Below are positions 2,636-17,497 of a stretch of 50,102 nt of DNA, piece by piece. The stretch comes from a virus (taxonomy: Duplodnaviria > Caudoviricetes). Position numbers and translations under genes: made by a program. The DNA is taken from the IMG/VR virus record IMGVR_UViG_3300048575_000412, positions 1 to 50,102 of that record. One strand, 5' to 3'. The notes below the pieces were generated by a model. The model was not told where the DNA came from. It saw nothing but the letters and a program-made list of their open reading frames with translations, and did no database searches. Within the stretch, counting starts at the first letter, position 1. Every line of letters starts with the position of its first letter.

Positions 2636-3621
2636 TACCTGGCCTCCTCTCGTTGGGGAGTGGTGGGGAAGGCGTTATGTTCGACGCCATCGAGCAGGCG
2701 GCCGGCGTCGCTCTTCTTGACGCGACGCATGATGTGGAAGCGCTCGCCGTGAAAGCCAGTCCCGCCGGCAAGGTTCAGCCAGGCGATACCCTTGCGGGCC
2801 TGGTTGAATTCGCCGGAGTAGTCGGCGCGCCAGTCCGGATCTTCGCGGTCGCGGTCGAGCGCAGCGATCCAGTTGCCCCACTGCTTGAACAGGTAAGGGA
2901 TGCCGTAGGCGGCGCAGAAGTCGCGCGCGGCGCGGTGCCAGTCCGGATGGCTGGGCCGAACATCAGGCCCACTTTCTCCGCCTGACACCAGCCATTTGAG
3001 GAATTCCCAGCCGCGCCAGTCGATCGGACCAAGCGCGGGTTCGTAGGATACCCACGTCGTCCAGCCTTCGGCGGCAAGACAGGCCAGCATGTCGCGACGC
3101 TCGTTGGCGCGGCGTTGGTCCTCGACAGAGACGCCGAGCCAGAGATTTTGAAGGGGCCAGCTCTGGACCTCTCGCGGCGCGCCGGAGAAACCCGACCAGT
3201 TGACATAGATGTCTTCCAACAGGTCGGACTGGCTCATGAAGTCGAACATGCGTTCGGCCCGCTTGGTCAACACCTGGAAAGTGTGGTGCGGATTGCACGC
3301 GATGACGGTAAGTACGTCGATGATCCACTCGTCGGGAACGTTCTCGGCGAACAGATCGCCATGCGCGCAGACGAAGATTTTTCTCGGTCTCGTCCACTGA
3401 GACGGCTGGTGAAGCCACTGGCGGTTCAGGCGGACTTCGCCGGTCCAGACGTGCTTGCCGTTGACCTGCTTGGTCAGGCCCTTGCGGCTCGGAAGGTTCT
3501 TGAGGCGGGTACCGGCGAGGGCCATCGCATAGCAGTTCGTGCAGGCCGGGGAGACGATGGAACAACCGGTGATCGGGTTCCAGGTTGCGTCTGCCCATTC
3601 GATATCGGTGTGGTCAGCCAT
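2635..3621 (-). CDS. DUF5131 (phage Gp37/Gp68) radical-SAM-like protein
   Basis: Start trimmed to MADHTDIEW; [55 protein letters not shown]. Confidence 0.9.
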
Positions 3622-3793
3622 GGACCTTCTCCCGATTGAGCTTGACCTTGTCGATCTCGCCGGGGCGGGCACATTTGCGCGCCTCGTCGGCGGTTTCGGC
3701 GTGCACGGCCTGAATGGTCCCGTCCTTGAAATGGACGCGGAAGGGCAGGGCCGTTTCGGGGGCATGGATGCGCCGGGAAGGGCGGTTAGCCAT
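3614..3793 (-). CDS. Hypothetical phage protein (59 aa)
   Basis: MANRPSRRIHAPE...; overlaps both neighbours by 8 nt, fits operon packing. Confidence 0.55.
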   Translation of the reverse strand: MANRPSRRIHAPETALPFRVHFKDGTIQAVHAETADEARKCARPGEIDKVKLNREKVHG

Positions 3794-4130
3794 GGGCCTT
3801 GCCTCCCAGCAGCGCTGTGGTGCCGTCGACCAGCGCGAGGTAGGCGATGGCGAGGCGCAGCGCGGCTGCGGGTTCGGTGAGCGCGCGCGGGTTGCCCTCG
3901 ATAATGGCGGTGGCCAGCAGTTCGGCGCCGTCGAAATCGATCGGGCCGGCAAGGAGCTTGCCACCGGCATCGAGCAGGACGGCCGCACCCGCGCCATAGG
4001 TCGCCAGGCGGGCGTCGCCCATCTTCGTCGTGCCATCGCGGATCTCTCCGGGCGCGGCCGTGGCAAACATCGCGTGACCGTTGGAAAAGGTTCGTTCCGG
4101 CGCTGGGCAAAGAACAAGGTCGGGTTTCAT
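3786..4130 (-). CDS. Hypothetical phage protein (114 aa)
   Basis: MKPDLVLCPAPERT...; starts 2 nt after the HD gene stop with GAGG RBS. Confidence 0.6.
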   Translation of the reverse strand: MKPDLVLCPAPERTFSNGHAMFATAAPGEIRDGTTKMGDARLATYGAGAAVLLDAGGKLLAGPIDFDGAELLATAIIEGNPRALTEPAAALRLAIAYLALVDGTTALLGGKAHG

Positions 4131-4132
4131 GA

Positions 4133-4849
4133 TCAGCCTCGCTTGGCGGTTTTGGGAGCGCTTGCGGCCACATGGGCGCGGTGGGCGGCCTGGACGTCGC
4201 AGAAGAGCTGGTAGCCGCGCAGCTTCTTGAAGAGCGCGGTGAAGCGCTCCTCGGCGAGCATCGGCCCCCAGATCTTGAGCGAGGCCCAGGGCAGGGGTTT
4301 CAGCGCCTTCTGGGTCTTCACCCATTCGCCGGCTTGTCGACCGAACAGCGCCTGCGCTTCGGCATGGAGCATGCGCTGGTCCATCTGGTGGACGGTCATG
4401 CGCTGGCGATTGGTCCAGGCCGAGGGCGGCGGCAGACGCGCTGCCGTATAGATCGCCTCGTCCCATCCGGCCTTGATGTCGGCGATCGCCAGATGCAGGG
4501 CCTGGCCCATGGCCGCGCCGTGGCGATAGGCCAGAACGGCGGCCAGCAGAGACTGGAAAGGCCGCGTCTTGTCGCCAATCAGGAACTCATGGCCGTCATG
4601 CAGCAGGAAGAGCGCGGCCGTCAGTTCGTCCTCGCCCTCGGCCAGCAGCGTCTCCGCGCCCATGACGCAATGCTGCGCCACGGAAAACGCGCCATCCTTG
4701 GGCGCGCCGCTGAAACGGGCAATGCGCGAAAGCCGCCCGGCCATCACGGCAAAATCGACCTCGGCCGGTAGCGGACGCGCGAGATCCATCAGACTGCCAT
4801 CCGTGCGGAAACAATCGATCGAGGCGGTTGAGAGCGGGCGGATGGTCAT
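4133..4849 (-). CDS. HD-domain phosphohydrolase (YfdR/YfbR-like)
   Basis: RLSRIARFSG...FSVAQHC...LLHDGHE.LIGD.TRP HD signature; ATGA overlap with upstream gene. Confidence 0.85.
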   Translation of the reverse strand: MTIRPLSTASIDCFRTDGSLMDLARPLPAEVDFAVMAGRLSRIARFSGAPKDGAFSVAQHCVMGAETLLAEGEDELTAALFLLHDGHEFLIGDKTRPFQSLLAAVLAYRHGAAMGQALHLAIADIKAGWDEAIYTAARLPPPSAWTNRQRMTVHQMDQRMLHAEAQALFGRQAGEWVKTQKALKPLPWASLKIWGPMLAEERFTALFKKLRGYQLFCDVQAAHRAHVAASAPKTAKRG

Positions 4850-8162: not shown

Positions 8163-8587
8163 AGGATGTGGCCATCCGTCTGCAGTCGCATCCGCTGGTC
8201 GAGCTGGCGTGCCAGCACGCCGAGCGGCTTGGCTGCTCGCCGGAGAAGCTGTGCCTTGCGCTGCTGACGACCACCCTGCGGTCCGGCCTTGTCGACGGAA
8301 TTCTCGATGGAGACAGCCCGGACGAAATCTGCCCGCGCCATGGCGTCGTCGCCTGTAACTGGCCGCTTGGAAAGCGTCAGAAGCGAATATTGGCGCACAT
8401 CGTCTCCCATGCCGATGCCAACGGTCTTTTCTGCGGCTCCTATTCTGCCATCGGCGCGGCCACGGGCATCGTCGACGTCGCCAACTCGCTGCGCGCGCTG
8501 ATCCGGCGGGGCGAGATCGAGCGGGTGCGCATGGGAACGAACGCAAACCCGACCATCCTGCGAATTGCCAGCGGAGGGCAGGGTTGA
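8159..8587 (+). CDS. Hypothetical protein with C-terminal winged HTH
   Basis: MKDVAIRL...; SYSAIGAATGIVDVANSLRALIRRGEIER wHTH-like; ATGA coupling. Confidence 0.6.
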   Translation: MKDVAIRLQSHPLVELACQHAERLGCSPEKLCLALLTTTLRSGLVDGILDGDSPDEICPRHGVVACNWPLGKRQKRILAHIVSHADANGLFCGSYSAIGAATGIVDVANSLRALIRRGEIERVRMGTNANPTILRIASGGQG

Positions 8588-11196
8588 TGGATTACACCAC
8601 CTTCCTCAAGGACAAGGTGCAGATGGCCCCTTCGGGCGGCTTCGATGTTGCGCTCGACGAGATCAATCCCATACTGCTGCCGCATCAGAAGGCGATGGTC
8701 ATCTGGGCCTGCCGCGGCGGTCGCCGCGCGATCTTCGCCGCCTTCGGTCTCGGCAAGTCGATCATCCAGCTTGAAATCCTGCGCCTGGTCCTGTCGCGGT
8801 TCGGCGGGCGTGGCCTGCTGGTGCTGCCGCTGGGCGTGCGGCAGGAATTCCGCCGCGATGCCAGGACGCTCGAGACCGGCGATCATCCGAAGATCAGCGA
8901 TGCGCAGCGCAAGGCCCTCAGCCTCTGGCGCGCGGGACGCGCCGATCGCAACTACGATCTGGCCTTCATCCGCTCCGTCTCGGCCGCCGGCGAGACCGGG
9001 CTCTACATGACCAATTACGAGACGGTCCGCGACGGCAAGATCGACCCGCGCGCCTTCATGGCTGCCAGCCTCGACGAGGCGTCGTGCCTGCGCGGGTTCG
9101 GCGGCAGCAAGACCTTCCGCGAATTCATGCGGCTGTTCGACGGGATCCGCTTCAAGTTCGTCGCCACCGCGACGCCGAGCCCGAATGAATTCATCGAACT
9201 GCTGGCCTATTCCGCATTCCTCGAGGTCATGGATGTCGGGCAGGCGAAGACCCGGTTCTTCAAGCGCAATTCGGAGAAGGCGGACACGCTGTCCATCCAT
9301 CCCCACAAGGAACGCGAATTCTGGCTCTGGGTCGCCAGCTGGGGCCTGTTCGTCGAGCGGCCTTCCGATCTCGGTTTCTCCGACGAGGGCTACGACCTGC
9401 CGGACATGGTGGTCAACTGGCACGAGCTGCCGGCCGATCACGCCGGGGCGGGCACAGAGAAGAACGGGCAGGGCAGGCTGCTGCGCAACGCGGCCGCTTC
9501 GCTGTCCGAAGCGGCGCGCGAAAAACGCGACAGCCTGTCTGCCCGGATCGACAAGATGATGTCGCTTCGCGCCGAGGACCCGGACGCCCATCGGCTGATC
9601 TGGCACGACCTCGAGGCGGAGCGTCATGCGATCGAGGCGGCCATCCCGGGCATCGCCACGGTCTACGGCGCCCAGGACCTCGATCATCGCGAGCAGTCGA
9701 TCATCGACTTTTCCAACGGCGAACTGCCGGAGCTGGCGGGCAAGGCCTCGATTATGGGCTCGGGCTGCAATTTCCAGCGGCACTGCCATTGGGCGATCTT
9801 TCTCGGCATCGGCTTCAAGTTCAACGACTTCATCCAGGCCGTCCACCGCATCCAGCGATTCCTGCAGACGCACACCGTGCGCATCGACCTGATCTACACC
9901 GAGGCCGAGCGTCCGGTGCGCGACAGCCTCGAAGCGAAATGGCGCAGGCATATCGAGCAAAGGGCCATCATGACCAAGATCATCAAGAAATTCGGGCTTT
10001 CGGCCGCCGCCATGGCCGAGACCCTGCAGCGGTCCATGGGCGTCGAGCGGATCGAGGTTTCCGGGCCGGGCTATCGGCTCGTCAACAATGATTGCGTGCT
10101 GGAGTGCCAGCAGATGGCGGAAAACAGCGTCGACCTCATCGTCACGTCGATCCCGTTTTCGACGCAGTACGAATATTCGCCGAACTATGCCGACTTCGGC
10201 CACACCGACGACAACGAGCATTTCTGGAAGCAGATGGACTTCCTGATCCCGGAACTGCTGCGGGTGCTCTCGCCCGGCCGCGTGGCGGCAATCCATGTGA
10301 AGGACAGGATCGTCCCGGGCGGCATGACAGGCCTCGGCTTCCAGACGGTCTATCCCTTTTCCGACGATTGCGTCGCCCGCTTCAAGAGCCACGGTTTCGC
10401 ATTCCTGTCGCGCAAGACGATCACCACCGACGTCGTGAGGGAGAACAACCAGACCTATCGCCTCGGCTGGTCCGAACAGTGCAAGGACGGCAGCCGCATG
10501 GGCAATGGCATGCCGGAATATCTGCTGATCTTCCGCAAGCCGCCATCCGACGCGTCGAACGGCTATGCCGACAGCCCGGTGAAGAAGGACAAGCGCGAAT
10601 GGGTCGGTGCCGCCGGCGCCTGGACGCATCCGGAAGGCTATTCCCGCGCCCGCTGGCAGCTGGATGCCCATGGCTACATGCCGAGCGGCGGAAACCGTCA
10701 GTTGACGCCGCAGGAGTTCGCCGGCCTCGAGCATCACCAGATCTTCAAGCTGTGGAAGCGCTACAGCCTCGATGCCGTCTACGACTTCGAGCACCACGTG
10801 AAGATTGCCGAAGCGCTGGAGGAAAAGGGCATGCTGCCTTCGACCTTCATGCTCCTGCCGCCGCATTCCAAGCATGAAGACGTCTGGACGGACGTTACCC
10901 GCATGCTGTCGATGAACACGCTGCAGGCTGCGGCCGGCAAGGAAATGCATCTGTGCCCGCTGCAGTTCGACATCGTCGACCGGGCGATCGCGCAATATAC
11001 CGAGCCGGGCGAGACGGTGTTCGATCCCTTCGGCGGGCTGATGACCGTTCCCTACCGCGCGATCGGCAAGGGACGCAAGGCGATCGCCAGCGAACTCAAC
11101 CCCGCCTATTTCCTCGACGGCTGCAAATATGTGGAAGCGGAAGCGCGCCGCATGGCCATGCCGAGCCTCTTCGATCTGATGGAGGCGGCCGAGTGA
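8587..11196 (+). CDS. SF2 (SNF2-like) helicase fused to amino-DNA methyltransferase (N4C/N6A, beta-class order)
   Basis: AFGLGKS (Walker A), LDEAS, TATPSPN, QAVHRIQRF; then NNDC..SVDLIVTSIPF (motif IV), HLCPLQ, VFDPFGG (motif I), ELNPAY. Confidence 0.9.
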   Translation: MDYTTFLKDKVQMAPSGGFDVALDEINPILLPHQKAMVIWACRGGRRAIFAAFGLGKSIIQLEILRLVLSRFGGRGLLVLPLGVRQEFRRDARTLETGDHPKISDAQRKALSLWRAGRADRNYDLAFIRSVSAAGETGLYMTNYETVRDGKIDPRAFMAASLDEASCLRGFGGSKTFREFMRLFDGIRFKFVATATPSPNEFIELLAYSAFLEVMDVGQAKTRFFKRNSEKADTLSIHPHKEREFWLWVASWGLFVERPSDLGFSDEGYDLPDMVVNWHELPADHAGAGTEKNGQGRLLRNAAASLSEAAREKRDSLSARIDKMMSLRAEDPDAHRLIWHDLEAERHAIEAAIPGIATVYGAQDLDHREQSIIDFSNGELPELAGKASIMGSGCNFQRHCHWAIFLGIGFKFNDFIQAVHRIQRFLQTHTVRIDLIYTEAERPVRDSLEAKWRRHIEQRAIMTKIIKKFGLSAAAMAETLQRSMGVERIEVSGPGYRLVNNDCVLECQQMAENSVDLIVTSIPFSTQYEYSPNYADFGHTDDNEHFWKQMDFLIPELLRVLSPGRVAAIHVKDRIVPGGMTGLGFQTVYPFSDDCVARFKSHGFAFLSRKTITTDVVRENNQTYRLGWSEQCKDGSRMGNGMPEYLLIFRKPPSDASNGYADSPVKKDKREWVGAAGAWTHPEGYSRARWQLDAHGYMPSGGNRQLTPQEFAGLEHHQIFKLWKRYSLDAVYDFEHHVKIAEALEEKGMLPSTFMLLPPHSKHEDVWTDVTRMLSMNTLQAAAGKEMHLCPLQFDIVDRAIAQYTEPGETVFDPFGGLMTVPYRAIGKGRKAIASELNPAYFLDGCKYVEAEARRMAMPSLFDLMEAAE

Positions 11197-11675
11197 CCGC
11201 TCCCATGCTCTTCATCGTCACCGACCATGCGGAAAAGGCCGTGCTCGGTCTCCTCGGCCTGCCGCTCAAGGCGGTGCCTGCCTGGCTGTCGGTCGTGTCG
11301 ACACCGGAGCGTCTGGCGACCTTACCGACCGGCGCACCGGTCATGTCCTTGTGGGTTTCGGATGGCTCGCTGATCGAACAGCTGTGGCGCGAGGAGCGCG
11401 TGCGCCGCGCCTTCGACATCGACTATGACCGCCACGCCGCGCGGATCGCCGACTGGCTGAACCGCACCGCCGCGCGCGAGGCCGCGCTGATCGCCGAATA
11501 CTGCGCCGAGCGCGGCGAGCCCGTGCCGGCCATGGCGCAAGCCAATCACCCATCGGACGGCGGCGCAATCGCTGCAGTGAAGGGCAAAGCCCGACTGGCG
11601 GACGCCGTGGGCGTCGAACCGCCGCCGTCCGTGCCATCTTCCATCCCCCAGAAACGTGCCGCGAGGTGGTCATGA
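11193..11675 (+). CDS. Hypothetical phage protein
   Basis: GTGA overlap with MTase stop, ATGA overlap with next gene. Confidence 0.6.
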   Translation: MTAPMLFIVTDHAEKAVLGLLGLPLKAVPAWLSVVSTPERLATLPTGAPVMSLWVSDGSLIEQLWREERVRRAFDIDYDRHAARIADWLNRTAAREAALIAEYCAERGEPVPAMAQANHPSDGGAIAAVKGKARLADAVGVEPPPSVPSSIPQKRAARWS

Positions 11676-12202
11676 CCGCGATTCAGATCTTTGGCGACAA
11701 GCCGTTCGACATGAACCCGGCGCGGTTCGAGGCGCTGGCCGACCACCAGAAGGGCGAGCTGGTGCGGCTGATGTCCGAGCGTGGCTATGGCAAGGCGGCG
11801 CTGGTCAAGATCCTCGGCCAGCCGCTGGACCGGATCGTCGGTCTCTACCGTGAACGGAGCGCCTTCAGGACCGCCGCCTTCGACCGGGCGACCGGCGAGG
11901 ATTTTCCGCCGGCCAAGCAGGGGCGGACCGTCCGCGGGACGCTTTCAGCCCGGGCCGAGCGGATCCTGCTTTTGATTGCCCGTTCGGGCGGCCGGATCAA
12001 CCATAGTTTCCATGCGCTCGAGCTCGAAGCTGGCCTGTCGTCCTCGGCGGCCAAGGTGGCAGTCGGCAAGCTCTTGGAGCGCGGCCTCATCCTGCGCGAA
12101 TCGACCGACACGCGCGGCCGCTCCACCTTCGTCCTGACCGACAAGGGCGGGGCATTGGCCGACACGCTGACCACAAGCGGCGAGGGTGGTGGCGATGCGT
12201 GA
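11672..12202 (+). CDS. Winged-HTH (MarR-like) protein
   Basis: LELEAGLSSSAAKVAVGKLLERGLILRE...RGRSTFVLTDKG. Confidence 0.65.
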   Translation: MTAIQIFGDKPFDMNPARFEALADHQKGELVRLMSERGYGKAALVKILGQPLDRIVGLYRERSAFRTAAFDRATGEDFPPAKQGRTVRGTLSARAERILLLIARSGGRINHSFHALELEAGLSSSAAKVAVGKLLERGLILRESTDTRGRSTFVLTDKGGALADTLTTSGEGGGDA

Positions 12203-12503
12203 GCGGAAACCGAAAATCCTGCTGGTCGTCGCGCCGAGCATTACCGAGGCCCACAAGACGGCAAAGGCCCATGGTGTCGATCCGCAGGCCTGCGACGGAT
12301 TGCTGCGCACTGTCACCAACGCGCACCATTTGCGCGGCTGGAGCCATGGCACGCCCGTCATCTTTACCAACCGCGCCACCTGGGGCCGCAGCGCCGCGGC
12401 GCTGGCGCTCGACACGGCGCTCGACGCCTACCTGCGCACTGGCCGCCTGCGCCTCGCCGGCGACGCCGACATCATCGAACTGAAAGGGGAGATGCGGGCA
12501 TGA
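12195..12503 (+). CDS. Hypothetical phage protein
   Basis: MRERKPKILLVVAP...LRGWSHGTPV; 8-nt overlap with upstream gene. Confidence 0.6.
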   Translation: MRERKPKILLVVAPSITEAHKTAKAHGVDPQACDGLLRTVTNAHHLRGWSHGTPVIFTNRATWGRSAAALALDTALDAYLRTGRLRLAGDADIIELKGEMRA

Positions 12504-14410
12504 CTTTCGAGCTCTCCCGGATCTCCGGATATTCTACTCGCGATGACGCGCGAGATCGCAGAACGCCGTACCTTCATGTTTGTCGGCCGGGCTTGGTCCG
12601 CCGCGCGAACCGATCAGGTCTCAATTGTCTTCATCAACGCCATCAGATGTGTCCTGAAGGCTTTAACGTCGCTGCCGAAGTGAGCCTGCCTGTGGCAGTT
12701 AGGGCAGAGGGCAATGACATGCCTGGGATCGTCTGGGCCGCCGTCAGAGACGCGACGGATATGGTGGGGCTCGAGGTATGGAGTGCCTGTAGGACGCAGG
12801 AAGGGGGCCTTCGCTTTGCATTTCTCGCAGTGCCCGCCAGCCCTCGCAAGAACGTAGTCGCGCACGTCGGCAGAACGTTGGTAGATGTTCCGTGTCGCGT
12901 TGGCCGACGGGACGGAAGCTCTGGCCGCAGCATATGCTCTGGTTCGCAGAACAGACAGATCTCCGGCGGCACTCGGCGGGATCTGCGCTTCGACGACATC
13001 CGCCACAACGTCGAGCGGACGAAGTTCGAAAACGATTGCCTGGCGTGGCTTGCCTTCGCTGTCCTCCCCCTCTTCCCAATGCCATCCCTGGCAGATCATC
13101 TCATCTTTGAAGACGATGTGTCGGAGCGGGTATTCCTTTTCAAAAAAGAGCAGAGATTTTCCGTCGAGCAAGTGATTGGCAATCGCCTTGTTGCCGCCCG
13201 TCAACGTCATGTCGCCTCTCTGACCCTCGCCAAAGTACTCGATCAGACCATCGGCGTGCTGGCGATCGTTGTAGCCGTACTCGAGACCGCGTTTCCCACT
13301 TATGATGAAGATGACCGGGTGGCTCGCCGGCGTAATGATTCCACTCTGTCTTTGGCCGCCATATTTGGCGTGAATGTCATTGCGACGATTATAGGCAGTG
13401 CCGCGTTCAAAGCCAAAACTCATGAATTCTACCTCCGAAAACTGCACAGCTTGCCCTTTGTGTGCACGATGACAAGCGGCGGTACTGCGCTGGTCGTGTG
13501 TGTGCGGGTCACGTGCGAGCAGGCGCTCAATACCATGGACAGAGCCTCGGGGTGCGTCTTGGCCCAGACAGCTGACGGTTTCGGCCAGGACTTGGCAAAC
13601 CCTGCCATGTCCAACTCGCTACGCGAGCATGCCTTCATACCTTGCTGCCAGGGTCGAATGCTCGTGCACCGGGCCGAGAAGAGCGGTCTGCACGAGTACT
13701 CCGATCGAGTGCTGACGGTGATCAATCAAAGCATTGTCTTTGCCCATCGCAATGATCGTTATCTTGATGTTGTGGGGCCCTTCCTGACGGTTTTCCCATC
13801 CTGGGACGACCAAGGGTGGATCAAATACTATGTCATTTCCGAAGGACACGTTCTCATCGTCAATCTCAACGTTCCAGACCCGGAAAGAGAGCTCAAAGCT
13901 GGTGACAATAAACGAGTGCAACAGAAGTGTTCGTCGGTTCCAGTTGACGATTCGAATTACCAATTCCTCGTTTGCGTCGGTCCGCGGAAGCAAGTCAATC
14001 GTCGGAGGTGCGTCCCCAAGCTGAAAATCCGTTTGCTTCTGTGCTGCCTCTGCTTGTTTGAACAGGCTTCCGATCGTGAAAGCCGCCGCTATAGCCGCCG
14101 CCCATCCGCTCAAGGCGCCGACCCAAGTTACGAGACAATTGGCAGTTCCGTCACACAGGGCCCTCTGGGAGATTGGGTTGCCAAATATGAGGCACGCCCC
14201 AATGGCAGAGACCACAATTGGACCGAGCCATCGCATGACTTTGTCCGGAATATCGGTTTTCATTTTGCCCCCTACCTATCCGCAACCGATGATAATCACC
14301 GGCAGCATGGAAGTTCAATGGCGGAGCCCAGCCTGACCTTCCACGCATCGTGTCTCCGTCTGCGCCGCGGCGCTATTGCCAAAGGCGATAGTGAGGGATG
14401 CGCGGCATGA
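12500..14410 (+). CDS. 636-codon bridging ORF overlying two antisense cargo genes; protein function doubtful
   Basis: ATGA-coupled to upstream stop (12500-12503) with AAGGGGAG RBS and ATGA-coupled to primase start (14407-14410); no recognisable domain. Confidence 0.4.
   Translation: MTFELSRISGYSTRDDARDRRTPYLHVCRPGLVRRANRSGLNCLHQRHQMCPEGFNVAAEVSLPVAVRAEGNDMPGIVWAAVRDATDMVGLEVWSACRTQEGGLRFAFLAVPASPRKNVVAHVGRTLVDVPCRVGRRDGSSGRSICSGSQNRQISGGTRRDLRFDDIRHNVERTKFENDCLAWLAFAVLPLFPMPSLADHLIFEDDVSERVFLFKKEQRFSVEQVIGNRLVAARQRHVASLTLAKVLDQTIGVLAIVVAVLETAFPTYDEDDRVARRRNDSTLSLAAIFGVNVIATIIGSAAFKAKTHEFYLRKLHSLPFVCTMTSGGTALVVCVRVTCEQALNTMDRASGCVLAQTADGFGQDLANPAMSNSLREHAFIPCCQGRMLVHRAEKSGLHEYSDRVLTVINQSIVFAHRNDRYLDVVGPFLTVFPSWDDQGWIKYYVISEGHVLIVNLNVPDPERELKAGDNKRVQQKCSSVPVDDSNYQFLVCVGPRKQVNRRRCVPKLKIRLLLCCLCLFEQASDRESRRYSRRPSAQGADPSYETIGSSVTQGPLGDWVAKYEARPNGRDHNWTEPSHDFVRNIGFHFAPYLSATDDNHRQHGSSMAEPSLTFHASCLRLRRGAIAKGDSEGCAA
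12614..13423 (-). CDS. SRA-like + HNH endonuclease (McrA-type, putative modification-dependent restriction)
   Basis: GGAGG RBS; N-terminal IHAKYGGQRQSGI...GY.D...YFGEGQRGDM..GN.AI SRA-like; C-terminal CEKC...YLEPHH...GGPD...VIALCPNCHRQAH HNH. Confidence 0.88.
   Translation of the reverse strand: MSFGFERGTAYNRRNDIHAKYGGQRQSGIITPASHPVIFIISGKRGLEYGYNDRQHADGLIEYFGEGQRGDMTLTGGNKAIANHLLDGKSLLFFEKEYPLRHIVFKDEMICQGWHWEEGEDSEGKPRQAIVFELRPLDVVADVVEAQIPPSAAGDLSVLRTRAYAAARASVPSANATRNIYQRSADVRDYVLARAGGHCEKCKAKAPFLRPTGTPYLEPHHIRRVSDGGPDDPRHVIALCPNCHRQAHFGSDVKAFRTHLMALMKTIET
13619..14263 (-). CDS. Membrane protein of unknown function (two N-terminal TM helices)
   Basis: WLGPIVVSAIGACLIFG and WVGALSGWAAAIAAAFTI hydrophobic segments; GGTAGGGGG RBS; visibly more A/T than flanking phage genes. 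Confidence 0.75.
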   Translation of the reverse strand: MKTDIPDKVMRWLGPIVVSAIGACLIFGNPISQRALCDGTANCLVTWVGALSGWAAAIAAAFTIGSLFKQAEAAQKQTDFQLGDAPPTIDLLPRTDANEELVIRIVNWNRRTLLLHSFIVTSFELSFRVWNVEIDDENVSFGNDIVFDPPLVVPGWENRQEGPHNIKITIIAMGKDNALIDHRQHSIGVLVQTALLGPVHEHSTLAARYEGMLA

Positions 14411-15696
14411 GCACGATCCTCGACAAATTCATCATCCGCGCTCGCGAAGTCTCCTTTGCCGATGCCTGCGACCGGCTGAAAATCCCGGACGCGCCGAAGG
14501 GCAAGCCGGAATATCAGGGGCCATGCCCGGCCGAGGGCGGCAAGGATCGCTTTTCGGTCAACCGAAAAAAAGGCGTCTGGAACTGCCGCGGATGCTCGAC
14601 CGGCGGCCATGACGGGATCGGCCTTGCCGCCCACTGGCTCGGTCTCGATCTGCGCAACCGGGCGCAATTCCTGCTGGCCTGCGCGGCCGTGCTCTGTGAA
14701 CCGGTTCCGTCCGAAGGCGAGCGCGAGACGGACGAGGAGCGCGAGGCTCGACTAGCCCGCATTGCCGCGGCCAAGGCCCGCACCGAGCAGCGCCGCGCCG
14801 ACAACGAGAAATCGGCGGGAGACTATCGGGCCAAGGAAATCAGCAAGGCGCGCGGCCTGTGGCTGCATGCCGTCGACTGCGGTGCCGACGGAAAAGAGGC
14901 CGTGCGCGGCGCAACCGTGATCGCCGGCTATCTCAAGGCCCGCACCGGCTTCGACGTGCCGGGCGGAGTGTTCGATCACCTACGCTTCATTCCCGCCTGC
15001 ACCTACTGGCATGGGCAGGACGATCTCGGCAGGCCCCTGCCGATCTATAGCGGCCCCGCCATGGTCGCGCCCTTCGTTGACCCGGATGGCCGGATCGTCG
15101 GCTGTCACCTGACATGGATCGATCTCGGCCGCGCGCCAAAGCACCGACCGGATCTCGGCCTCGACGAGAAGGGCGAACCGCTTCCGACCAAGAAGATGCG
15201 CGGCGCGAAGAAGGGCGGGTTGATCCCAGTCTTCGGTGATCCGCAGGCCCGGCGCTGGGTTGGCGGCGAGGGGATCGAGAGCGTGGTCGCCATTGCCGGC
15301 CCGGAGGGTTTTCGCGCCGACACCTTCTATTTCGCCGCCGGCGACATCGGCAATCTGGCCGGCCCGGCTGATCCCGATTTCGCCTTCTTCCATCCGACGT
15401 TGAAAAAGCAGGACGCGGCCGGCCGGTGGAAGCGGGTGAAGGTCAAGGGGCCGGTGCCCCGGCAGGCGCAAGGCCCGGACGAAGCCGTCCAGGTGCCCGA
15501 TCACGTGATCGAGCTGGTGCTGATCGCCGACGGCGACAGCGAGCCGGTGGCAACCGCCTCCGACATGGCCCGCGCCGAGGCACGGCTCGGCCGGGAAGGG
15601 CGCACCGTCACCACCTGGTGGCCGCCGGAAGGACAGGATTTTGCCGACGCCATGGTGGCCGCGATGGCGCAGGAAGACGGGGCAGGGAATGACTGA
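14407..15696 (+). CDS. DNA primase-like protein (P4-alpha-type Zn domain + Toprim)
   Basis: GPCPAEGGKDRF...WNCRGC; GCHLTWID; GEGIES and LIADGD Toprim motifs; PPEGQDFAD. Confidence 0.85.
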   Translation: MSTILDKFIIRAREVSFADACDRLKIPDAPKGKPEYQGPCPAEGGKDRFSVNRKKGVWNCRGCSTGGHDGIGLAAHWLGLDLRNRAQFLLACAAVLCEPVPSEGERETDEEREARLARIAAAKARTEQRRADNEKSAGDYRAKEISKARGLWLHAVDCGADGKEAVRGATVIAGYLKARTGFDVPGGVFDHLRFIPACTYWHGQDDLGRPLPIYSGPAMVAPFVDPDGRIVGCHLTWIDLGRAPKHRPDLGLDEKGEPLPTKKMRGAKKGGLIPVFGDPQARRWVGGEGIESVVAIAGPEGFRADTFYFAAGDIGNLAGPADPDFAFFHPTLKKQDAAGRWKRVKVKGPVPRQAQGPDEAVQVPDHVIELVLIADGDSEPVATASDMARAEARLGREGRTVTTWWPPEGQDFADAMVAAMAQEDGAGND

Positions 15697-17497
15697 CAAG
15701 CAGAAGCCGGGCATTCCGGAGGCCGTCGCACGCATCCTCGCCGAGGCGACCGCGCAGCGGGCCGGATATGCCCAAAACCCCGAAACCCCTGAAGGCCCTG
15801 CGGGCGAGACTGTCGCGGCCGTGGCCGGGGACAGCGATGCCGATCCGGCCACCGTCGAATTCTGCGCCGAGATGGACCATTCCGACACGGACAACGGCAA
15901 GCGCCTCAGGCTGCACTTCGGCGACGACCTGCTGGTGGTCGCCCAGGAGAAGGGCAAGAATCCGACCTTCGCCGTCTGGACCGGTTCGCACTGGGACGTC
16001 GCCAATGGCGGGCCGAAGGCCAAGGCGATCGGCCAGCGCATCGGCGACCGGATCGCGGCCGAGGTTTCCTACATCAGGCCCAATCCCTACGAGCAGATGG
16101 TGATCGACCAGGCCGAAGAGGCGCGCAAGAAGCCGGAAGGCGAGCGCGGCGCGCTGGAAAGGAAACTGATCGCCGAGGCCGACAAGGCGCTCGAAGCCCA
16201 TGGCAAGCGGGTGAAACGCCGGCTTGACCATGCGGTGACTTCGAAGAACGTCGCCAAGATCAACGCCATGCTCGAAACCATCGCGCCGCACATCATGCGC
16301 AGCCCCGACGATTTCAACGCTGACAAGTGGATGGTCGCGGTCAAGAACGCCACGCTCCGATTCGAGCGCACCATGGCCAAGCGCCGCAACCCGCGCCATG
16401 TCAGCCTCGAGGATACGCCGGACGCGCCGGAGTTCATTGAAGTCTGCACTGATTTCCGCCTCAAGGTCATCGACGGCCATCGCCGCAAGGACCTGATCAC
16501 CAGTGTTGCGGCCGTCTCCTACGATCCGAAGGCGAAGTGCCCGACCTGGGACGCCTTCATCTCCAGCAAGCTGCCCGACGAGGCGGTGCGCCGGCTGGTG
16601 CAGGTGAGTTCGGGGCTCAGCATGCTCGGGATCACCGTGCAATATCTGTTCTTCCACTATGGCAACGGGGCGAACGGCAAGTCGGTCTACATGGAAACGC
16701 TCTGCCGGGTGCTGGGCGAGGCGGCCGTGACGCTGCCCTCGACCTCGATCATCGGCGAGGGCGGCTCATCGGGCGGCGCAAGCCCGGATCTGGCGCGCCT
16801 CTACGGCAAGCGCTTGCTGCGCGTCAAGGAGCTGCCGGAGGGCGAGGATCTGCGCGAGAACCTGGTCAAGGAACTGACCGGCGGCGAGACCGTCACGGCC
16901 CGCGACCTCTTCTCGGGCTACATGGACTTCGAGCCGAAATTCATCGCCATGATGAGCGGCAATGGCTATCCGCGCATTTCCGGCACCGACGACGGCATAT
17001 GGCGGCGCATGGCGGTCATCCACTGGCCGCGCCAGATCGCCAAGGAAGACCGTCGTGAATTCCAGGACGTGATCGCCAGTTTCGAGCCGGAATATCCGGG
17101 CATCCTCAACTGGCTGATCGAGGGCGTGAAGATCTATTTGCGCGAAGGGTTGGTGATCCCCGAGGCCGTGGTGCAGGCGACGCAGGCCTATCGCGACGAC
17201 ATGGACCGCACGGCGGCCTTCGTCGCGCGCTGCATCCAGCGCGACGACAATGCCCCGCCCGTCGAGGGCAAGGTGCTCTACCAGGCCTTCTGCGACTTCA
17301 CCATCGACCAGGGCGGCAAGCCGATGAACAACACCGCCTTCGGGCGCGACATGGGCAAGAAGTTCGAAAAAGACCGATCGTCCGGCGTCGTGCTCTATCG
17401 CGGCATTCGCCTCGTCAACGTTCCCCATGTCGACCGCGGCCAGGAGCCGCCGCCCGGCCGCTTCGACCGAGACGAGCCTTTCCCGGAGCCCTTCTGA
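15689..17497 (+). CDS. P4-family/D5-like SF3 helicase (primase-associated)
   Basis: DTDNGKRL, CPTWDAFI, YGNGANGKS Walker A, VKELTGGETVTARDL, DDGIWRR. Confidence 0.92.
   Translation: MTDKQKPGIPEAVARILAEATAQRAGYAQNPETPEGPAGETVAAVAGDSDADPATVEFCAEMDHSDTDNGKRLRLHFGDDLLVVAQEKGKNPTFAVWTGSHWDVANGGPKAKAIGQRIGDRIAAEVSYIRPNPYEQMVIDQAEEARKKPEGERGALERKLIAEADKALEAHGKRVKRRLDHAVTSKNVAKINAMLETIAPHIMRSPDDFNADKWMVAVKNATLRFERTMAKRRNPRHVSLEDTPDAPEFIEVCTDFRLKVIDGHRRKDLITSVAAVSYDPKAKCPTWDAFISSKLPDEAVRRLVQVSSGLSMLGITVQYLFFHYGNGANGKSVYMETLCRVLGEAAVTLPSTSIIGEGGSSGGASPDLARLYGKRLLRVKELPEGEDLRENLVKELTGGETVTARDLFSGYMDFEPKFIAMMSGNGYPRISGTDDGIWRRMAVIHWPRQIAKEDRREFQDVIASFEPEYPGILNWLIEGVKIYLREGLVIPEAVVQATQAYRDDMDRTAAFVARCIQRDDNAPPVEGKVLYQAFCDFTIDQGGKPMNNTAFGRDMGKKFEKDRSSGVVLYRGIRLVNVPHVDRGQEPPPGRFDRDEPFPEPF

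What the first reader, a model, noticed from the sequence alone, without database searches (positions are those of the whole stretch)
12500..14410. 636-codon ORF bridging a two-gene antisense island, ATGA-coupled at both ends
Seen: it starts in ATGA with the upstream stop and ends in ATGA with the primase start. Both cargo genes share the same codon register, and about 150 codons of non-cargo DNA (12500-12613, 13424-13618, 14264-14410) are also stop-free. The cargos therefore use no TTA, CTA or TCA codon, although the membrane gene is A/T-richer and uses many other A-ending codons. Inference: selection keeps the frame open so the primase-helicase stays coupled; the product may be junk or a de novo protein.
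Basis: partly seen in the sequence, partly recalled or inferred. Interest (0 to 1): 0.8.

Follow-up and report, generated by a model that had tools for sequence, protein, structure and literature searches.

The report
Stop-free bridge frame across antisense cassette
A phage operon reads straight through two defence-type genes lying backwards inside it, and those genes avoid the three codons that would put a stop in the operon's reading frame, a pattern repeated in dozens of related prophages.

Summary
ORF 12500-14410 (+, 636 codons) starts in ATGA on the stop of the upstream gene and ends in ATGA on the primase start. It spans two minus-strand genes in exact codon register: a McrA-like HNH nuclease and a two-helix membrane protein. 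Neither gene has a TTA, CTA or TCA codon.

This is not a codon-bias shadow. Among 120 distinct homologues of the HNH gene, 57 have none of these codons, where 2.1 were expected, and the counts are bimodal. All other A-ending codons are used normally. The stop-free state goes with tight nesting between opposite-strand genes: NTGA junctions at both ends in 27 of 57 stop-free genes against 1 of 63 others. Membrane-gene homologues in 33 of 34 viral loci are spanned in the same way.

HNH synonymous sites evolve freely (dN/dS 0.04-0.16 in both groups). Selection therefore acts on the open frame and not on the product's sequence.

Best reading: a translated "bridge" frame keeps the lytic operon's mRNA covered by ribosomes across the antisense cassette, so primase and helicase are not lost to polarity. 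Translation itself is untested. Five literature searches found no description of this.

The parts
12186..12503 (+). Upstream operon gene (105 aa, phrog_27832). Its TGA stop (12501-12503) overlaps the ATG of the bridge frame.
   Evidence: phrog_27832, E 1.9e-23. Conserved in relatives L002 (88%) and L003 (75%).
12486..12491 (+). Shine-Dalgarno-like GGGGAG, 8 nt upstream of ATG 12500.
   Evidence: The flank including this motif and the ATGA is conserved in L002 and L003.
12500..14410 (+). Bridge reading frame of 636 codons. It matches no protein family and coincides exactly with the variable cassette slot.
   Evidence: No Pfam, NCBIfam, PADLOC or PHROG hit. DNA homology to L002 stops at 12503 and resumes at 14408. 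GC1/GC3 are 0.62/0.62, so the frame has no coding signature.
12614..13423 (-). Cargo gene 1: McrA-like HNH nuclease of 269 aa, type IV restriction-like. ATG at 13423, with an alternative GTG at 13447.
   Evidence: Full-length phrog_15103 match, E 3.2e-76. Pfam HNH, E 1.3e-8. PADLOC mREase_IV, E 2.9e-19. PDB hits to ScoMcrA 5zmm/5zmn and E. coli McrA 6ghc. 2470 homologues. No TTA, CTA or TCA.
13424..13618 (.). Spacer of 65 codons between the two cargo genes, stop-free in the bridge frame.
13619..14263 (-). Cargo gene 2: membrane protein of 214 aa, with two N-terminal transmembrane helices, a long helix and an Ig-like beta-sandwich.
   Evidence: 47 homologues with no Pfam family. AlphaFold model with pLDDT 86. 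Only generic beta-sandwich fold matches. No TTA, CTA or TCA.
14289..14318 (-). Promoter-like site (TTGAAC, 18 nt, TATCAT) upstream of the membrane gene. It could be the cassette's own promoter.
   Evidence: This is a consensus match only (2 found against 0.6 expected) and is not evidence of function.
14393..14398 (+). Shine-Dalgarno-like GAGGGA, 8 nt upstream of the primase ATG at 14407.
14407..15696 (+). Primase gene. Its ATG overlaps the TGA stop of the bridge frame (14408-14410).
   Evidence: phrog_510, E 2.3e-72. Pfam DUF7146 and Zn_Ribbon_Prim. The start is aligned with L002 (GTGA) and L003 (ATGA).
15641..17497 (+). D5-type helicase/primase C-terminal gene, the next gene in the operon.
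   Evidence: Pfam D5_N. phrog_1156, E 1.3e-128.

Best explanation
Layout. The stretch 12504-14407 is an accessory cassette of two genes, a McrA-like HNH nuclease and a membrane protein. It sits backwards in a variable slot of the phage's early/replication operon, between a 105-aa gene and the primase.

Proposed mechanism. On the operon strand, a reading frame is kept free of stop codons across the whole cassette. Ribosomes that finish the upstream gene restart at the overlapping ATG (ATGA, with a GGGGAG motif upstream). They translate 636 codons of sequence with no meaning of its own, and stop at the TGA that overlaps the primase ATG. There they, or fresh ribosomes on the GAGGGA motif, start the primase.

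Inferred purpose. The operon mRNA is antisense to the cargo over about 1.9 kb. Translation keeps this stretch covered by ribosomes, so it is not left naked to Rho-dependent termination or polarity, and the coupling chain to primase and helicase is not broken. The cost falls on the cargo genes, which may not use TTA, CTA or TCA.

Shown: the anatomy; family-wide selection against stops; the link between the stop-free state and coupled nesting; the lack of constraint on the product's sequence.

Inferred: that the frame is translated, and that the benefit is anti-polarity or coupling.
For: 1. Anatomy.

2. The slot. Homology to the closest relative, L002, breaks exactly at 12503 and resumes at 14408. 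Relatives hold + strand genes there. These are a C5 DNA methylase of 619-676 aa in L002, L004, L005 and L011, a PAPS-reductase-like gene in L005 and L014, and a 76-aa remnant in L003. NTGA is kept at both ends in L002 and L003.

3. Stop avoidance across the family.
- 32 of 80 genomic HNH homologues lack TTA, CTA and TCA.
- 45 of 64 viral-contig HNH homologues lack them.
- After removing identical CDS, 57 of 120 lack them, against 2.1 expected from a GC3-dependent fit. In that group 0 forbidden codons were seen among 1604 Leu and Ser codons, where 212 were expected.
- The counts are bimodal: 0 in 57 genes, 1 in 3, 4 in 16.
- Other A-ending codon fractions are the same in both groups.
- The same trinucleotides occur about 10 times each in the other two frames of these genes.
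- Genes with GC3 of 0.34-0.42 (L039, L102) also have none.

4. Coupling.
- Both NTGA junctions, with partner ORFs of at least 50 codons, occur in 32 of 57 stop-free genes. They occur in 3 of 90 ordinary shadow ORFs (Fisher 1.4e-13).
- A nesting test that does not depend on the frame being open gave both junctions in 27 of 57 stop-free genes against 1 of 63 others.
- SD 4-mers lie upstream of 34 of 45 bridge starts and 34 of 49 downstream gene starts, against 137 of 1140 random positions.

5. Generality.
- Membrane-gene homologues in 34 viral loci, only 5 with an adjacent HNH gene, are covered by open antisense frames of 246-598 codons in 33 of 34. An NTGA junction lies downstream in 32 of 34.
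- Bridges span HNH plus membrane gene in either order (window; L015, L046, L102). One spans HNH plus two DUF982 genes (L100).
- The cassettes sit in different slots. In L033 the cassette lies between primase and helicase.

6. The product is unconstrained.
- HNH-frame dN/dS is 0.04-0.16 in stop-free pairs and 0.04-0.16 in other pairs, with dS up to above 2.
- In contigs about 96% identical (run X1), 9 of 11 changes inside the HNH gene are synonymous for HNH, and 7 of those change the bridge product. All 5 changes in non-cargo parts change the bridge product. None makes a stop.

7. Background. Rho terminates transcripts that are not being translated, antisense RNAs included. This comes from the starts of the abstracts of PMC11551753 and PMC5909445 as shown in the listing.
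Against: - There is no RNA, ribosome-profiling or protein evidence for this locus. Only a 317-nt contig from an RNA library covers 12721-13037, with no strand information and possible DNA carry-over.
- The primase has its own SD-like motif, so strict dependence on re-initiation is not required.
- In the Agrobacterium clade the frame carries 1-3 stops in L041, L125, L127, L129 and L131. Only L043 and L157 keep it open, although the neighbouring genes look intact. The frame is therefore dispensable at least there. In that clade the downstream junction is not an NTGA overlap.
- 6 of 57 stop-free genes show neither junction by my criteria.
- Whether these phages have an antitermination system that would make Rho irrelevant is unknown.
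- Distinct CDS are not phylogenetically independent. The quick tree needs only 6-10 changes of state.
- My neighbour gene calls are crude and based on GC3.
Confidence: 0.6

Rival explanations
1. The bridge frame encodes a functional protein: a true antisense overlapping gene, for instance one that switches off or modulates the cargo during lytic growth, as the small antisense gene ith does for Tha in S. aureus prophages.
For: It has an SD-like motif, an ATG start and selection against stops. There are precedents. In S. aureus prophages the product of an antisense gene inhibits the defence protein Tha (PMC11087260, passages read). In Pseudomonas phage Fc02, gene 10 of the lytic operon overlaps the exclusion genes olg1/olg2 in antisense and itself shows exclusion activity (PMC9936078, passages read).
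Against: - The HNH gene's synonymous sites are not constrained. These sites are first codon positions of the bridge frame. dN/dS and dS are alike in stop-free and other homologues.
- Close-relative changes are mostly non-synonymous in the bridge frame.
- No family matches it.
- Bridge products differ completely with the cargo: HNH alone, membrane gene alone, either gene order, DUF982 genes. No common protein exists.
- The frame shows no GC3 coding signature.
Confidence: 0.13
2. The frame must stay translated for a reason other than expression of the downstream genes. Trailing ribosomes might help the operon's RNA polymerase win head-on conflicts with cargo transcription and so silence the cargo at induction. 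Or ribosome cover might stop the operon RNA from pairing with cargo mRNA and being cut as double-stranded RNA.
For: All the stop-avoidance and coupling evidence applies here too. A promoter-like site for the cargo faces the operon. [quoted passage not shown]
Against: Nothing in the sequence separates this from the anti-polarity reading. The precise NTGA overlap with the next gene's start in most cases points to hand-over of ribosomes to the downstream gene.
Confidence: 0.2
3. An ordinary shadow ORF. In GC-rich DNA the frame directly opposite a gene is often open because TTA, CTA and TCA are rare codons, so the ATGA ends and the shared register are coincidence.
For: Many long antisense open frames exist in the window, up to 923 codons opposite the methylase gene. 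Under the phage's own codon usage P(0) would be 0.63-0.65 per cargo gene. The two ATGA motifs belong to conserved flanks. A 2019 preprint reports thousands of long antiparallel ORFs whose products are not under selection (10.1101/724807, passages read).
Against: - The cargo has GC3 of 0.61-0.65 and uses other A-ending codons at about 19-21%.
- P(0) is 0.009 and 0.0077 with matched usage, and 0.0087 for the non-cargo codons.
- 57 of 120 homologues have zero forbidden codons against 2.1 expected, and the distribution is bimodal.
- Genes with GC3 of 0.34-0.42 also have zero.
- Coupled junctions occur in 32 of 57 stop-free genes against 3 of 90 real shadow ORFs.
Confidence: 0.03

Closest known systems
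Noncontiguous operons (an antisense gene nested within an operon), as used for Tha/Ith in S. aureus prophages (PMC11087260, passages read)
   Same: A gene with its own promoter lies backwards inside an operon of a temperate phage. The cargo is defence-type. The operon's transcript must cross it in antisense.
   Different: In the passages I read, nothing is said of a reading frame kept open across the nested gene, of start/stop overlaps at both ends, or of a codon restriction on the nested gene. In that system the antisense product is a specific inhibitor protein. Here the product's sequence is unconstrained.
Long antiparallel ORFs with stop-codon avoidance (bioRxiv 10.1101/724807, passages read)
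   Same: The frame directly opposite a gene is free of stops beyond codon-usage expectation. Ka/Ks indicates that the product is not under purifying selection. The authors speculate that translation has some role other than making an essential protein.
   Different: That text contains none of the words 'operon', 'coupling', 'phage' or 'polar'. It gives no link to nesting inside opposite-strand operons, no junction anatomy and no mechanism.
Pseudomonas phage Fc02: olg1/olg2 overlapping gene 10 of the early lytic operon in antisense (PMC9936078, passages read)
   Same: In a temperate phage, lysogeny-expressed exclusion genes lie antisense to, and overlap, an ORF of the lytic operon.
   Different: This is a single phage with short genes and other reading-frame relations. 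Both strands are claimed to encode active exclusion proteins. No comparative evidence for stop avoidance is given in the passages read.
Translational coupling by ATGA overlaps, and Rho-dependent polarity in bacterial operons (established knowledge; Rho's action on untranslated and antisense RNA as stated in the abstract starts of PMC11551753 and PMC5909445, listing)
   Same: Four-base start/stop overlaps with upstream SD motifs. An operon transcript needs ribosome cover to escape Rho.
   Different: Here the coupled 'gene' in the chain is not a gene in the usual sense. It is the back side of two other genes.
McrA / ScoMcrA type IV (modification-dependent) HNH restriction endonucleases, for cargo gene 1
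   Same: A C-terminal HNH domain and an N-terminal domain that matches a ScoMcrA fragment. It is prophage-borne. That E. coli McrA is also prophage-borne is recalled, not tested.
   Different: Its specificity is unknown. It has 269 aa and lacks the extra domains of the 561-aa ScoMcrA chain.

Membership tests
McrA-like type IV restriction endonuclease (cargo gene 1) | HNH nuclease domain | tested here: met
   Pfam PF01844, E 1.3e-8, above the cutoff. PADLOC mREase_IV, E 2.9e-19 and 1e-17. PDB McrA 6ghc, E 3.1e-17, and ScoMcrA 5zmm, E 4.2e-18.
McrA-like type IV restriction endonuclease (cargo gene 1) | N-terminal domain that reads modified DNA | tested here: inconclusive
   Residues 8-137 match the ScoMcrA fragment 5zmn at 175-300, E 5.6e-6. 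Homologues carry a precomputed PF26348 hit. I did not establish which modification, if any, is read.
McrA-like type IV restriction endonuclease (cargo gene 1) | Cleavage that depends on DNA modification | not testable with these tools
   Needs an enzyme assay.
Noncontiguous operon | An opposite-strand gene nested between genes of one operon | tested here: met
   The minus-strand cargo at 12614-14263 lies between + strand genes with 4-nt overlaps. It is the only minus-strand island in the + block from 8.5 to 50 kb by crude GC3 gene calls.
Noncontiguous operon | One operon transcript runs across the nested gene | not testable with these tools
   No stranded RNA data. No terminator-like site on the + strand apart from one weak 5-bp stem at 12800.
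Protein-coding antisense overlapping gene | Purifying selection on the product's sequence | tested here: not met
   dN/dS and dS of the HNH frame do not differ between stop-free and other homologues. Changes in a 96%-identical relative are mostly non-synonymous in the bridge frame.
Protein-coding antisense overlapping gene | Evidence of translation | not testable with these tools
   Only indirect evidence: SD-like motif, ATG start, stop avoidance.
Shadow ORF from codon bias | Absence of TTA/CTA/TCA explained by composition or codon usage | tested here: not met
   57 zero genes against 2.1 expected.
Moron (accessory gene with its own promoter and terminator) | Own promoter and factor-independent terminator flanking the cargo | tested here: inconclusive
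   A promoter-like site at 14318-14289 (-). No terminator-like site after the HNH gene. These are consensus scans only.

The most novel reading that the evidence does not exclude
Bridge frames may be a general device of alphaproteobacterial temperate phages. Accessory or defence genes can be carried backwards inside essential lytic operons, provided that the operon strand keeps a translated reading frame across them, one with no meaning of its own and coupled at both ends. The codon usage of the cargo (no TTA, CTA or TCA) would then be dictated by the needs of the opposite strand. Cassettes already carrying a stop-free back side would be pre-adapted to move between operon slots. This would be selection on translatability alone, with a protein product that is waste.
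Probability: 0.5. Interest if true: 0.85.

Novelty: new variant of a known kind. Interest (0 to 1): 0.78.

Why it matters
- It would explain one class of long antisense ORFs with stop-codon avoidance whose products are not under selection. A survey of 929 genomes left that puzzle open (10.1101/724807, passages read).
- It would show that a gene's synonymous codon choice can be fixed by the need to keep the other strand translatable. That bears on codon-usage models, on dN/dS methods and on recoding of phage genomes.
- It gives a simple sequence signature for finding accessory and defence cargo nested in prophage operons: an opposite-strand gene without TTA, CTA or TCA, spanned by an NTGA-coupled frame. 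It also warns gene callers, since the 636-codon frame is longer than either real gene.
- It offers a clean experiment on transcription-translation coupling and Rho polarity. One change that is synonymous for the cargo puts a stop in the bridge.
- The slot holds a McrA-like nuclease here and a C5 cytosine methylase in relatives. That hints at conflict between related phages over DNA modification.

Tried and rejected
1. Remnant of an ancestral gene. Relatives hold a 619-676-aa methylase in the slot, close in length to 636 aa. blastp found no similarity between ORF636 and any slot gene. DNA homology ends exactly at the two junctions. The similar length is coincidence.

2. Flanking direct repeats as insertion scars. 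One search found only 13-14-nt GC-rich repeats (12391/14362 and 12331/14399). The junction motifs look like generic SD-spacer-ATGA sequences seen at many junctions. Not pursued.

3. Partial homology of the non-cargo parts of ORF636 to anything in the homologue loci. tblastn gave only E-values of 0.58-0.97.

4. Close phage relatives in the 'phages' collection. Only 4 weak hits, all to the primase part.

5. A single-sequence scan of viral contigs with the HNH protein found 1 weak locus. The alignment-based scans replaced it.

6. Public runs. No run holds half or more of the stretch's words. The laid contigs gave only partial cover. The lack of cover over 13994-14224 says nothing.

7. Fold of the membrane protein. 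Only generic beta-sandwich matches with TM-scores of 0.2-0.5, so no function could be assigned.

8. The careful maximum-likelihood tree did not finish in the time allowed. The quick tree was used.

9. Rows dropped.
- L091 (750-codon fused form) was left out of the tree and of the 120-gene statistics.
- L159 (E 3e-4) fell below my tblastn threshold.
- Identical CDS were merged.
- The dN/dS table kept only pairs of 75-99.5% amino-acid identity within one group.

10. Literature. Five searches found no paper describing a stop-free, coupled frame across an antisense-nested gene. The library lacks most subscription journals. Supplements were not opened, and those of 10.1101/724807 (its S tables of candidate ORFs) could list members of this class.

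11. Not used: the search of protein representatives, complex prediction, the protein-atlas search, and a structure prediction of ORF636.
Full report
**What the window is**

The window is the whole record held for this genome: 50,102 bp, 64% GC, and treated by the tools as a virus record. Crude GC3-based gene calls put minus-strand genes in the first 8.4 kb. A long + strand block follows. It runs through a DNA methylase, small early genes, a primase, a D5-type helicase and then large late genes. The finding lies in the early/replication part of that block.

**The observation**

The ORF 12500-14410 (+, 636 aa) exists as described.
- Its ATG overlaps the TGA of the upstream gene 12186-12503 (phrog_27832) as ATGA.
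- Its TGA overlaps an ATG of the primase ORF as ATGA. That ATG, at 14407, is where the relatives L002 and L003 align their start. A second in-frame ATG lies at 14398.

Two minus-strand genes lie inside the ORF.
- The first (12614-13423) is a full-length member of phrog_15103 (E 3.2e-76). It has a Pfam HNH domain, PADLOC type IV restriction models, PDB matches to E. coli McrA and ScoMcrA, and 2470 homologues.
- The second (13619-14263) has 47 homologues in Rhizobium, Sinorhizobium, Mesorhizobium, Agrobacterium and others, and matches no family. It folds with confidence (pLDDT 86) into two transmembrane helices, a long helix and an Ig-like beta-sandwich.

Both cargo genes are therefore real. They share one codon register, and that register is exactly opposite the + frame. 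A + strand stop can arise only from a TTA, CTA or TCA codon in the cargo. The cargo has none among 39 Leu and 23 Ser codons, although about a fifth of its other four-fold codons end in A. The 152 non-cargo codons are stop-free as well.

**Is it more than chance?**

Long open frames opposite genes are ordinary in this genome. There are 923 open codons opposite the methylase gene, and the phage's own genes (GC3 0.81-0.87) use the three codons at 0.19%. The cargo is different, with GC3 of 0.61-0.65. I took synonymous usage from 34 homologues of matched GC3 that do use these codons.
- P(no forbidden codon) is 0.009 for the HNH gene.
- It is 0.0077 for the membrane gene.
- The non-cargo codons were stop-free in 1745 of 200000 shuffles.

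**Where the ATGA ends come from**

Relatives found through the primase share the flanks. DNA homology to L002 (primase 91% identical) stops at 12503 and resumes at 14408. The ORF therefore coincides exactly with a variable slot. The slot's contents in relatives are as follows.
- A + strand C5 cytosine methylase of 619-676 aa in L002, L004, L005 and L011.
- A PAPS-reductase-like gene in L005 and L014.
- An unknown 231-aa gene in L007 and L009.
- A 76-aa ORF in L003. Its first 46 residues are 80% identical to the start of the PAPS-reductase-like gene, so it is probably a gutted remnant.

The ATGA at the upstream stop and the (A/G)TGA at the primase start are present in L002 and L003 too. They are old features of the flanks and were not made by the island. 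What needs explaining is the 1.9 kb of open frame between them.

**The comparative test**

I fetched DNA of HNH homologues from 80 genome contigs and 65 viral contigs.
- 32 of the 80 genomic homologues have no in-frame TTA, CTA or TCA.
- 45 of the 64 viral-contig homologues analysed have none.
- After merging identical CDS, 57 of 121 have none, and the counts are bimodal: 0 in 57 genes, 1 in 3, 2 in 7, 3 in 6, 4 in 16, 5 or more in 32.
- A GC3-dependent fit to the genes that do use these codons predicts 2.1 zero genes among 120. It predicts 212 forbidden codons among the 1604 Leu and Ser codons of the zero group. None is seen.

In GC3-matched sets, the usage of every other A-ending codon is the same in the two groups. 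For example, GTA is 0.08 against 0.10, CCA 0.19 against 0.21, and GCA 0.18 against 0.17. TTA, CTA and TCA are 0 in the zero group against 0.27, 0.14 and 0.23 in the other. The same three trinucleotides occur about ten times each in the other two frames of the zero-group genes. Genes with GC3 as low as 0.34-0.42 are also free of them (L039, and L102 with its partner gene). On a quick tree the zero state is clustered but needs 6-10 changes, and it sits on long branches. The window groups with two Devosia genes that are also in the zero group.

**Nesting and coupling**

In the zero group, the opposite-strand frame usually starts with a start codon that overlaps the stop of an upstream ORF (NTGA). 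It usually ends with a TGA that overlaps the start of a downstream ORF.
- Both junctions, with partner ORFs of at least 50 codons, occur in 32 of 57 zero-group genes. They occur in 3 of 90 ordinary shadow ORFs in the same loci (Fisher 1.4e-13).
- A test that does not depend on the frame being open gave an upstream junction within 150 nt of the HNH stop in 39 of 57 zero-group genes against 11 of 63 others.
- The same test gave a downstream junction as the first stop within 250 nt of the HNH start in 34 of 57 against 4 of 63. Both were present in 27 of 57 against 1 of 63. Two-gene cassettes fail these narrow windows, so the zero-group figures are underestimates.
- Shine-Dalgarno 4-mers lie 5-17 nt upstream of 34 of 45 bridge starts and 34 of 49 downstream gene starts, against 137 of 1140 random positions.
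- My crude neighbour calls agree. Both neighbours lie on the opposite strand in 19 of 32 zero loci and 12 of 48 others.

The cassettes sit in different places: upstream of the primase (window, L038), between primase and helicase (L033), or downstream of a methylase (L037, L057). Most have flanks unrelated to the window's.

**Generality beyond the HNH gene**

All six membrane-gene homologues seen next to HNH genes lack the three codons. Bridges of 524-617 codons span HNH plus membrane gene in the opposite gene order to the window's (L015, L046, L102). Other bridged partners include two DUF982 genes (L100) and a weak HicB-like match (L047). A separate scan for the membrane gene found 34 viral loci, only 5 of them with an HNH neighbour.
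- In 33 of the 34, an open opposite-strand frame of 246-598 codons covers the gene.
- 32 of the 34 have an NTGA junction downstream, and 23 have one upstream.
- 26 of the 34 have zero forbidden codons even with my crude start calls. Four of these loci are identical to one another.

**What is selected**

Sense third positions are bridge first positions. A useful bridge protein would therefore slow synonymous change in the HNH gene. It does not.
- NG86 dN/dS is 0.04-0.16 in zero-zero pairs and 0.04-0.16 in other pairs, apart from one near-identical pair. dS reaches 1-3 in both groups.
- Contigs of run X1, about 96% identical, cover 12300-12892 and 13080-13466. Inside the HNH gene 9 of 11 changes are synonymous for HNH, and 7 of those change the bridge product. 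All 5 changes in non-cargo parts change the bridge product. None makes a stop.

Selection thus acts on openness alone. The bridge frame shows no family match and no GC3 coding signature.

**Mechanism**

The lytic operon must be read through the backwards cassette, and a translated frame coupled at both ends keeps ribosomes on that stretch of mRNA. Rho terminates transcripts that are not being translated, antisense RNAs included. This is established knowledge and is stated in the abstract starts of PMC11551753 and PMC5909445 (listing). Without the bridge, about 1.9 kb of untranslated antisense RNA would stand before the primase and helicase genes. The exact NTGA hand-over to the next gene fits coupling.

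Two variants cannot be separated from this by sequence alone. In one, ribosome-backed polymerase overrides cargo transcription. In the other, ribosome cover protects the RNA from pairing with cargo mRNA. A functional bridge protein is unlikely for the reasons given above, but Tha/Ith (PMC11087260) and Fc02 gene 10 (PMC9936078) are precedents for active antisense products.

**Evidence against, and limits**

- Nothing here shows transcription or translation.
- The primase has its own SD-like motif.
- In the Agrobacterium clade five members carry 1-3 stops and two keep the frame open. In that clade the downstream end is not an NTGA overlap.
- Six zero-group genes show neither junction.
- Distinct sequences are not independent events. 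The tree is a quick one. Neighbour gene calls are crude.

**Comparison with what is known**

- The layout is a noncontiguous operon in the sense used in PMC11087260.
- Stop avoidance without selection on the product matches the class reported in bioRxiv 10.1101/724807. That text offers no operon or coupling explanation, and does not contain the words 'operon', 'coupling', 'phage' or 'polar'.
- Five full-text searches found no description of a coupled, stop-free frame across an antisense-nested gene. The library is incomplete and supplements were closed.

I therefore rate this a new variant of a known kind.

**Verdict**

The inference that selection keeps the frame open is strongly supported, by about 57 diverged HNH genes and about 30 membrane-gene loci. 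The purpose (anti-polarity or coupling) is inferred, with confidence 0.6.

Noticed in passing
window 12504-14407; L002:2883-5001, L004, L005, L011, L014, L007, L009, L003: The slot between the 105-aa gene and the primase is a hotspot for swapped cargo. Relatives carry a C5 cytosine DNA methylase and/or a PAPS-reductase-like gene there on the + strand. This phage carries a McrA-like, possibly methyl-directed, nuclease instead. The two contents look mutually exclusive, which would fit conflict between related phages over DNA modification.
   Followed up: partly
L003:3306-3536: A 76-aa ORF is coupled by ATGA at both ends. Its first 46 residues are 80% identical to the start of the PAPS-reductase-like gene of L005. 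It looks like a gutted gene kept in frame between the same two neighbours.
   Followed up: partly
window 8440-11211 (-): A 923-codon stop-free frame lies opposite the 870-aa ParB/N6_N4 methylase gene (8584-11196). The gene has GC3 of 0.86 and no TTA, CTA or TCA. This one looks like an ordinary codon-bias shadow, but it was not tested in the same way.
   Followed up: no
L102-L105 (four identical viral contig loci), 2923-4494: The HNH and membrane genes here have GC3 of only 0.39 and 0.34, yet a 524-codon opposite-strand frame is open, with ATGA at both ends. This is the most extreme case of the pattern.
   Followed up: partly
L046:1920-2720 and 2914-4767: Two copies of the membrane gene sit in one locus, one on each side of the HNH gene. 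Each lacks the three codons and each is covered by its own open opposite-strand frame.
   Followed up: partly
L041, L125, L127, L129, L131 versus L043, L157 (Agrobacterium clade): Close relatives in the same context differ. Five have 1-3 stops in the bridge frame and two have none. Here the frame's end is not an NTGA overlap with the 736-aa downstream gene. This may be relaxed selection or decaying prophages.
   Followed up: partly
window 12721-13037: A 317-nt contig from a metatranscriptome library (run X3) matches with 2 differences. The strand is unknown and DNA carry-over is possible, so it does not prove transcription.
   Followed up: no
window 15641-15696: The helicase ORF's first possible start (TTG 15641) overlaps the primase's end by 56 nt. 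The true start is probably further downstream and was not resolved.
   Followed up: no
window 13619-14263 (-): The membrane protein's predicted C-terminal domain is an Ig-like beta-sandwich, outside the membrane, after two transmembrane helices and a 40-residue helix. It recurs with and without the HNH gene in Rhizobiales prophages and may be an exclusion or sensing protein.
   Followed up: partly
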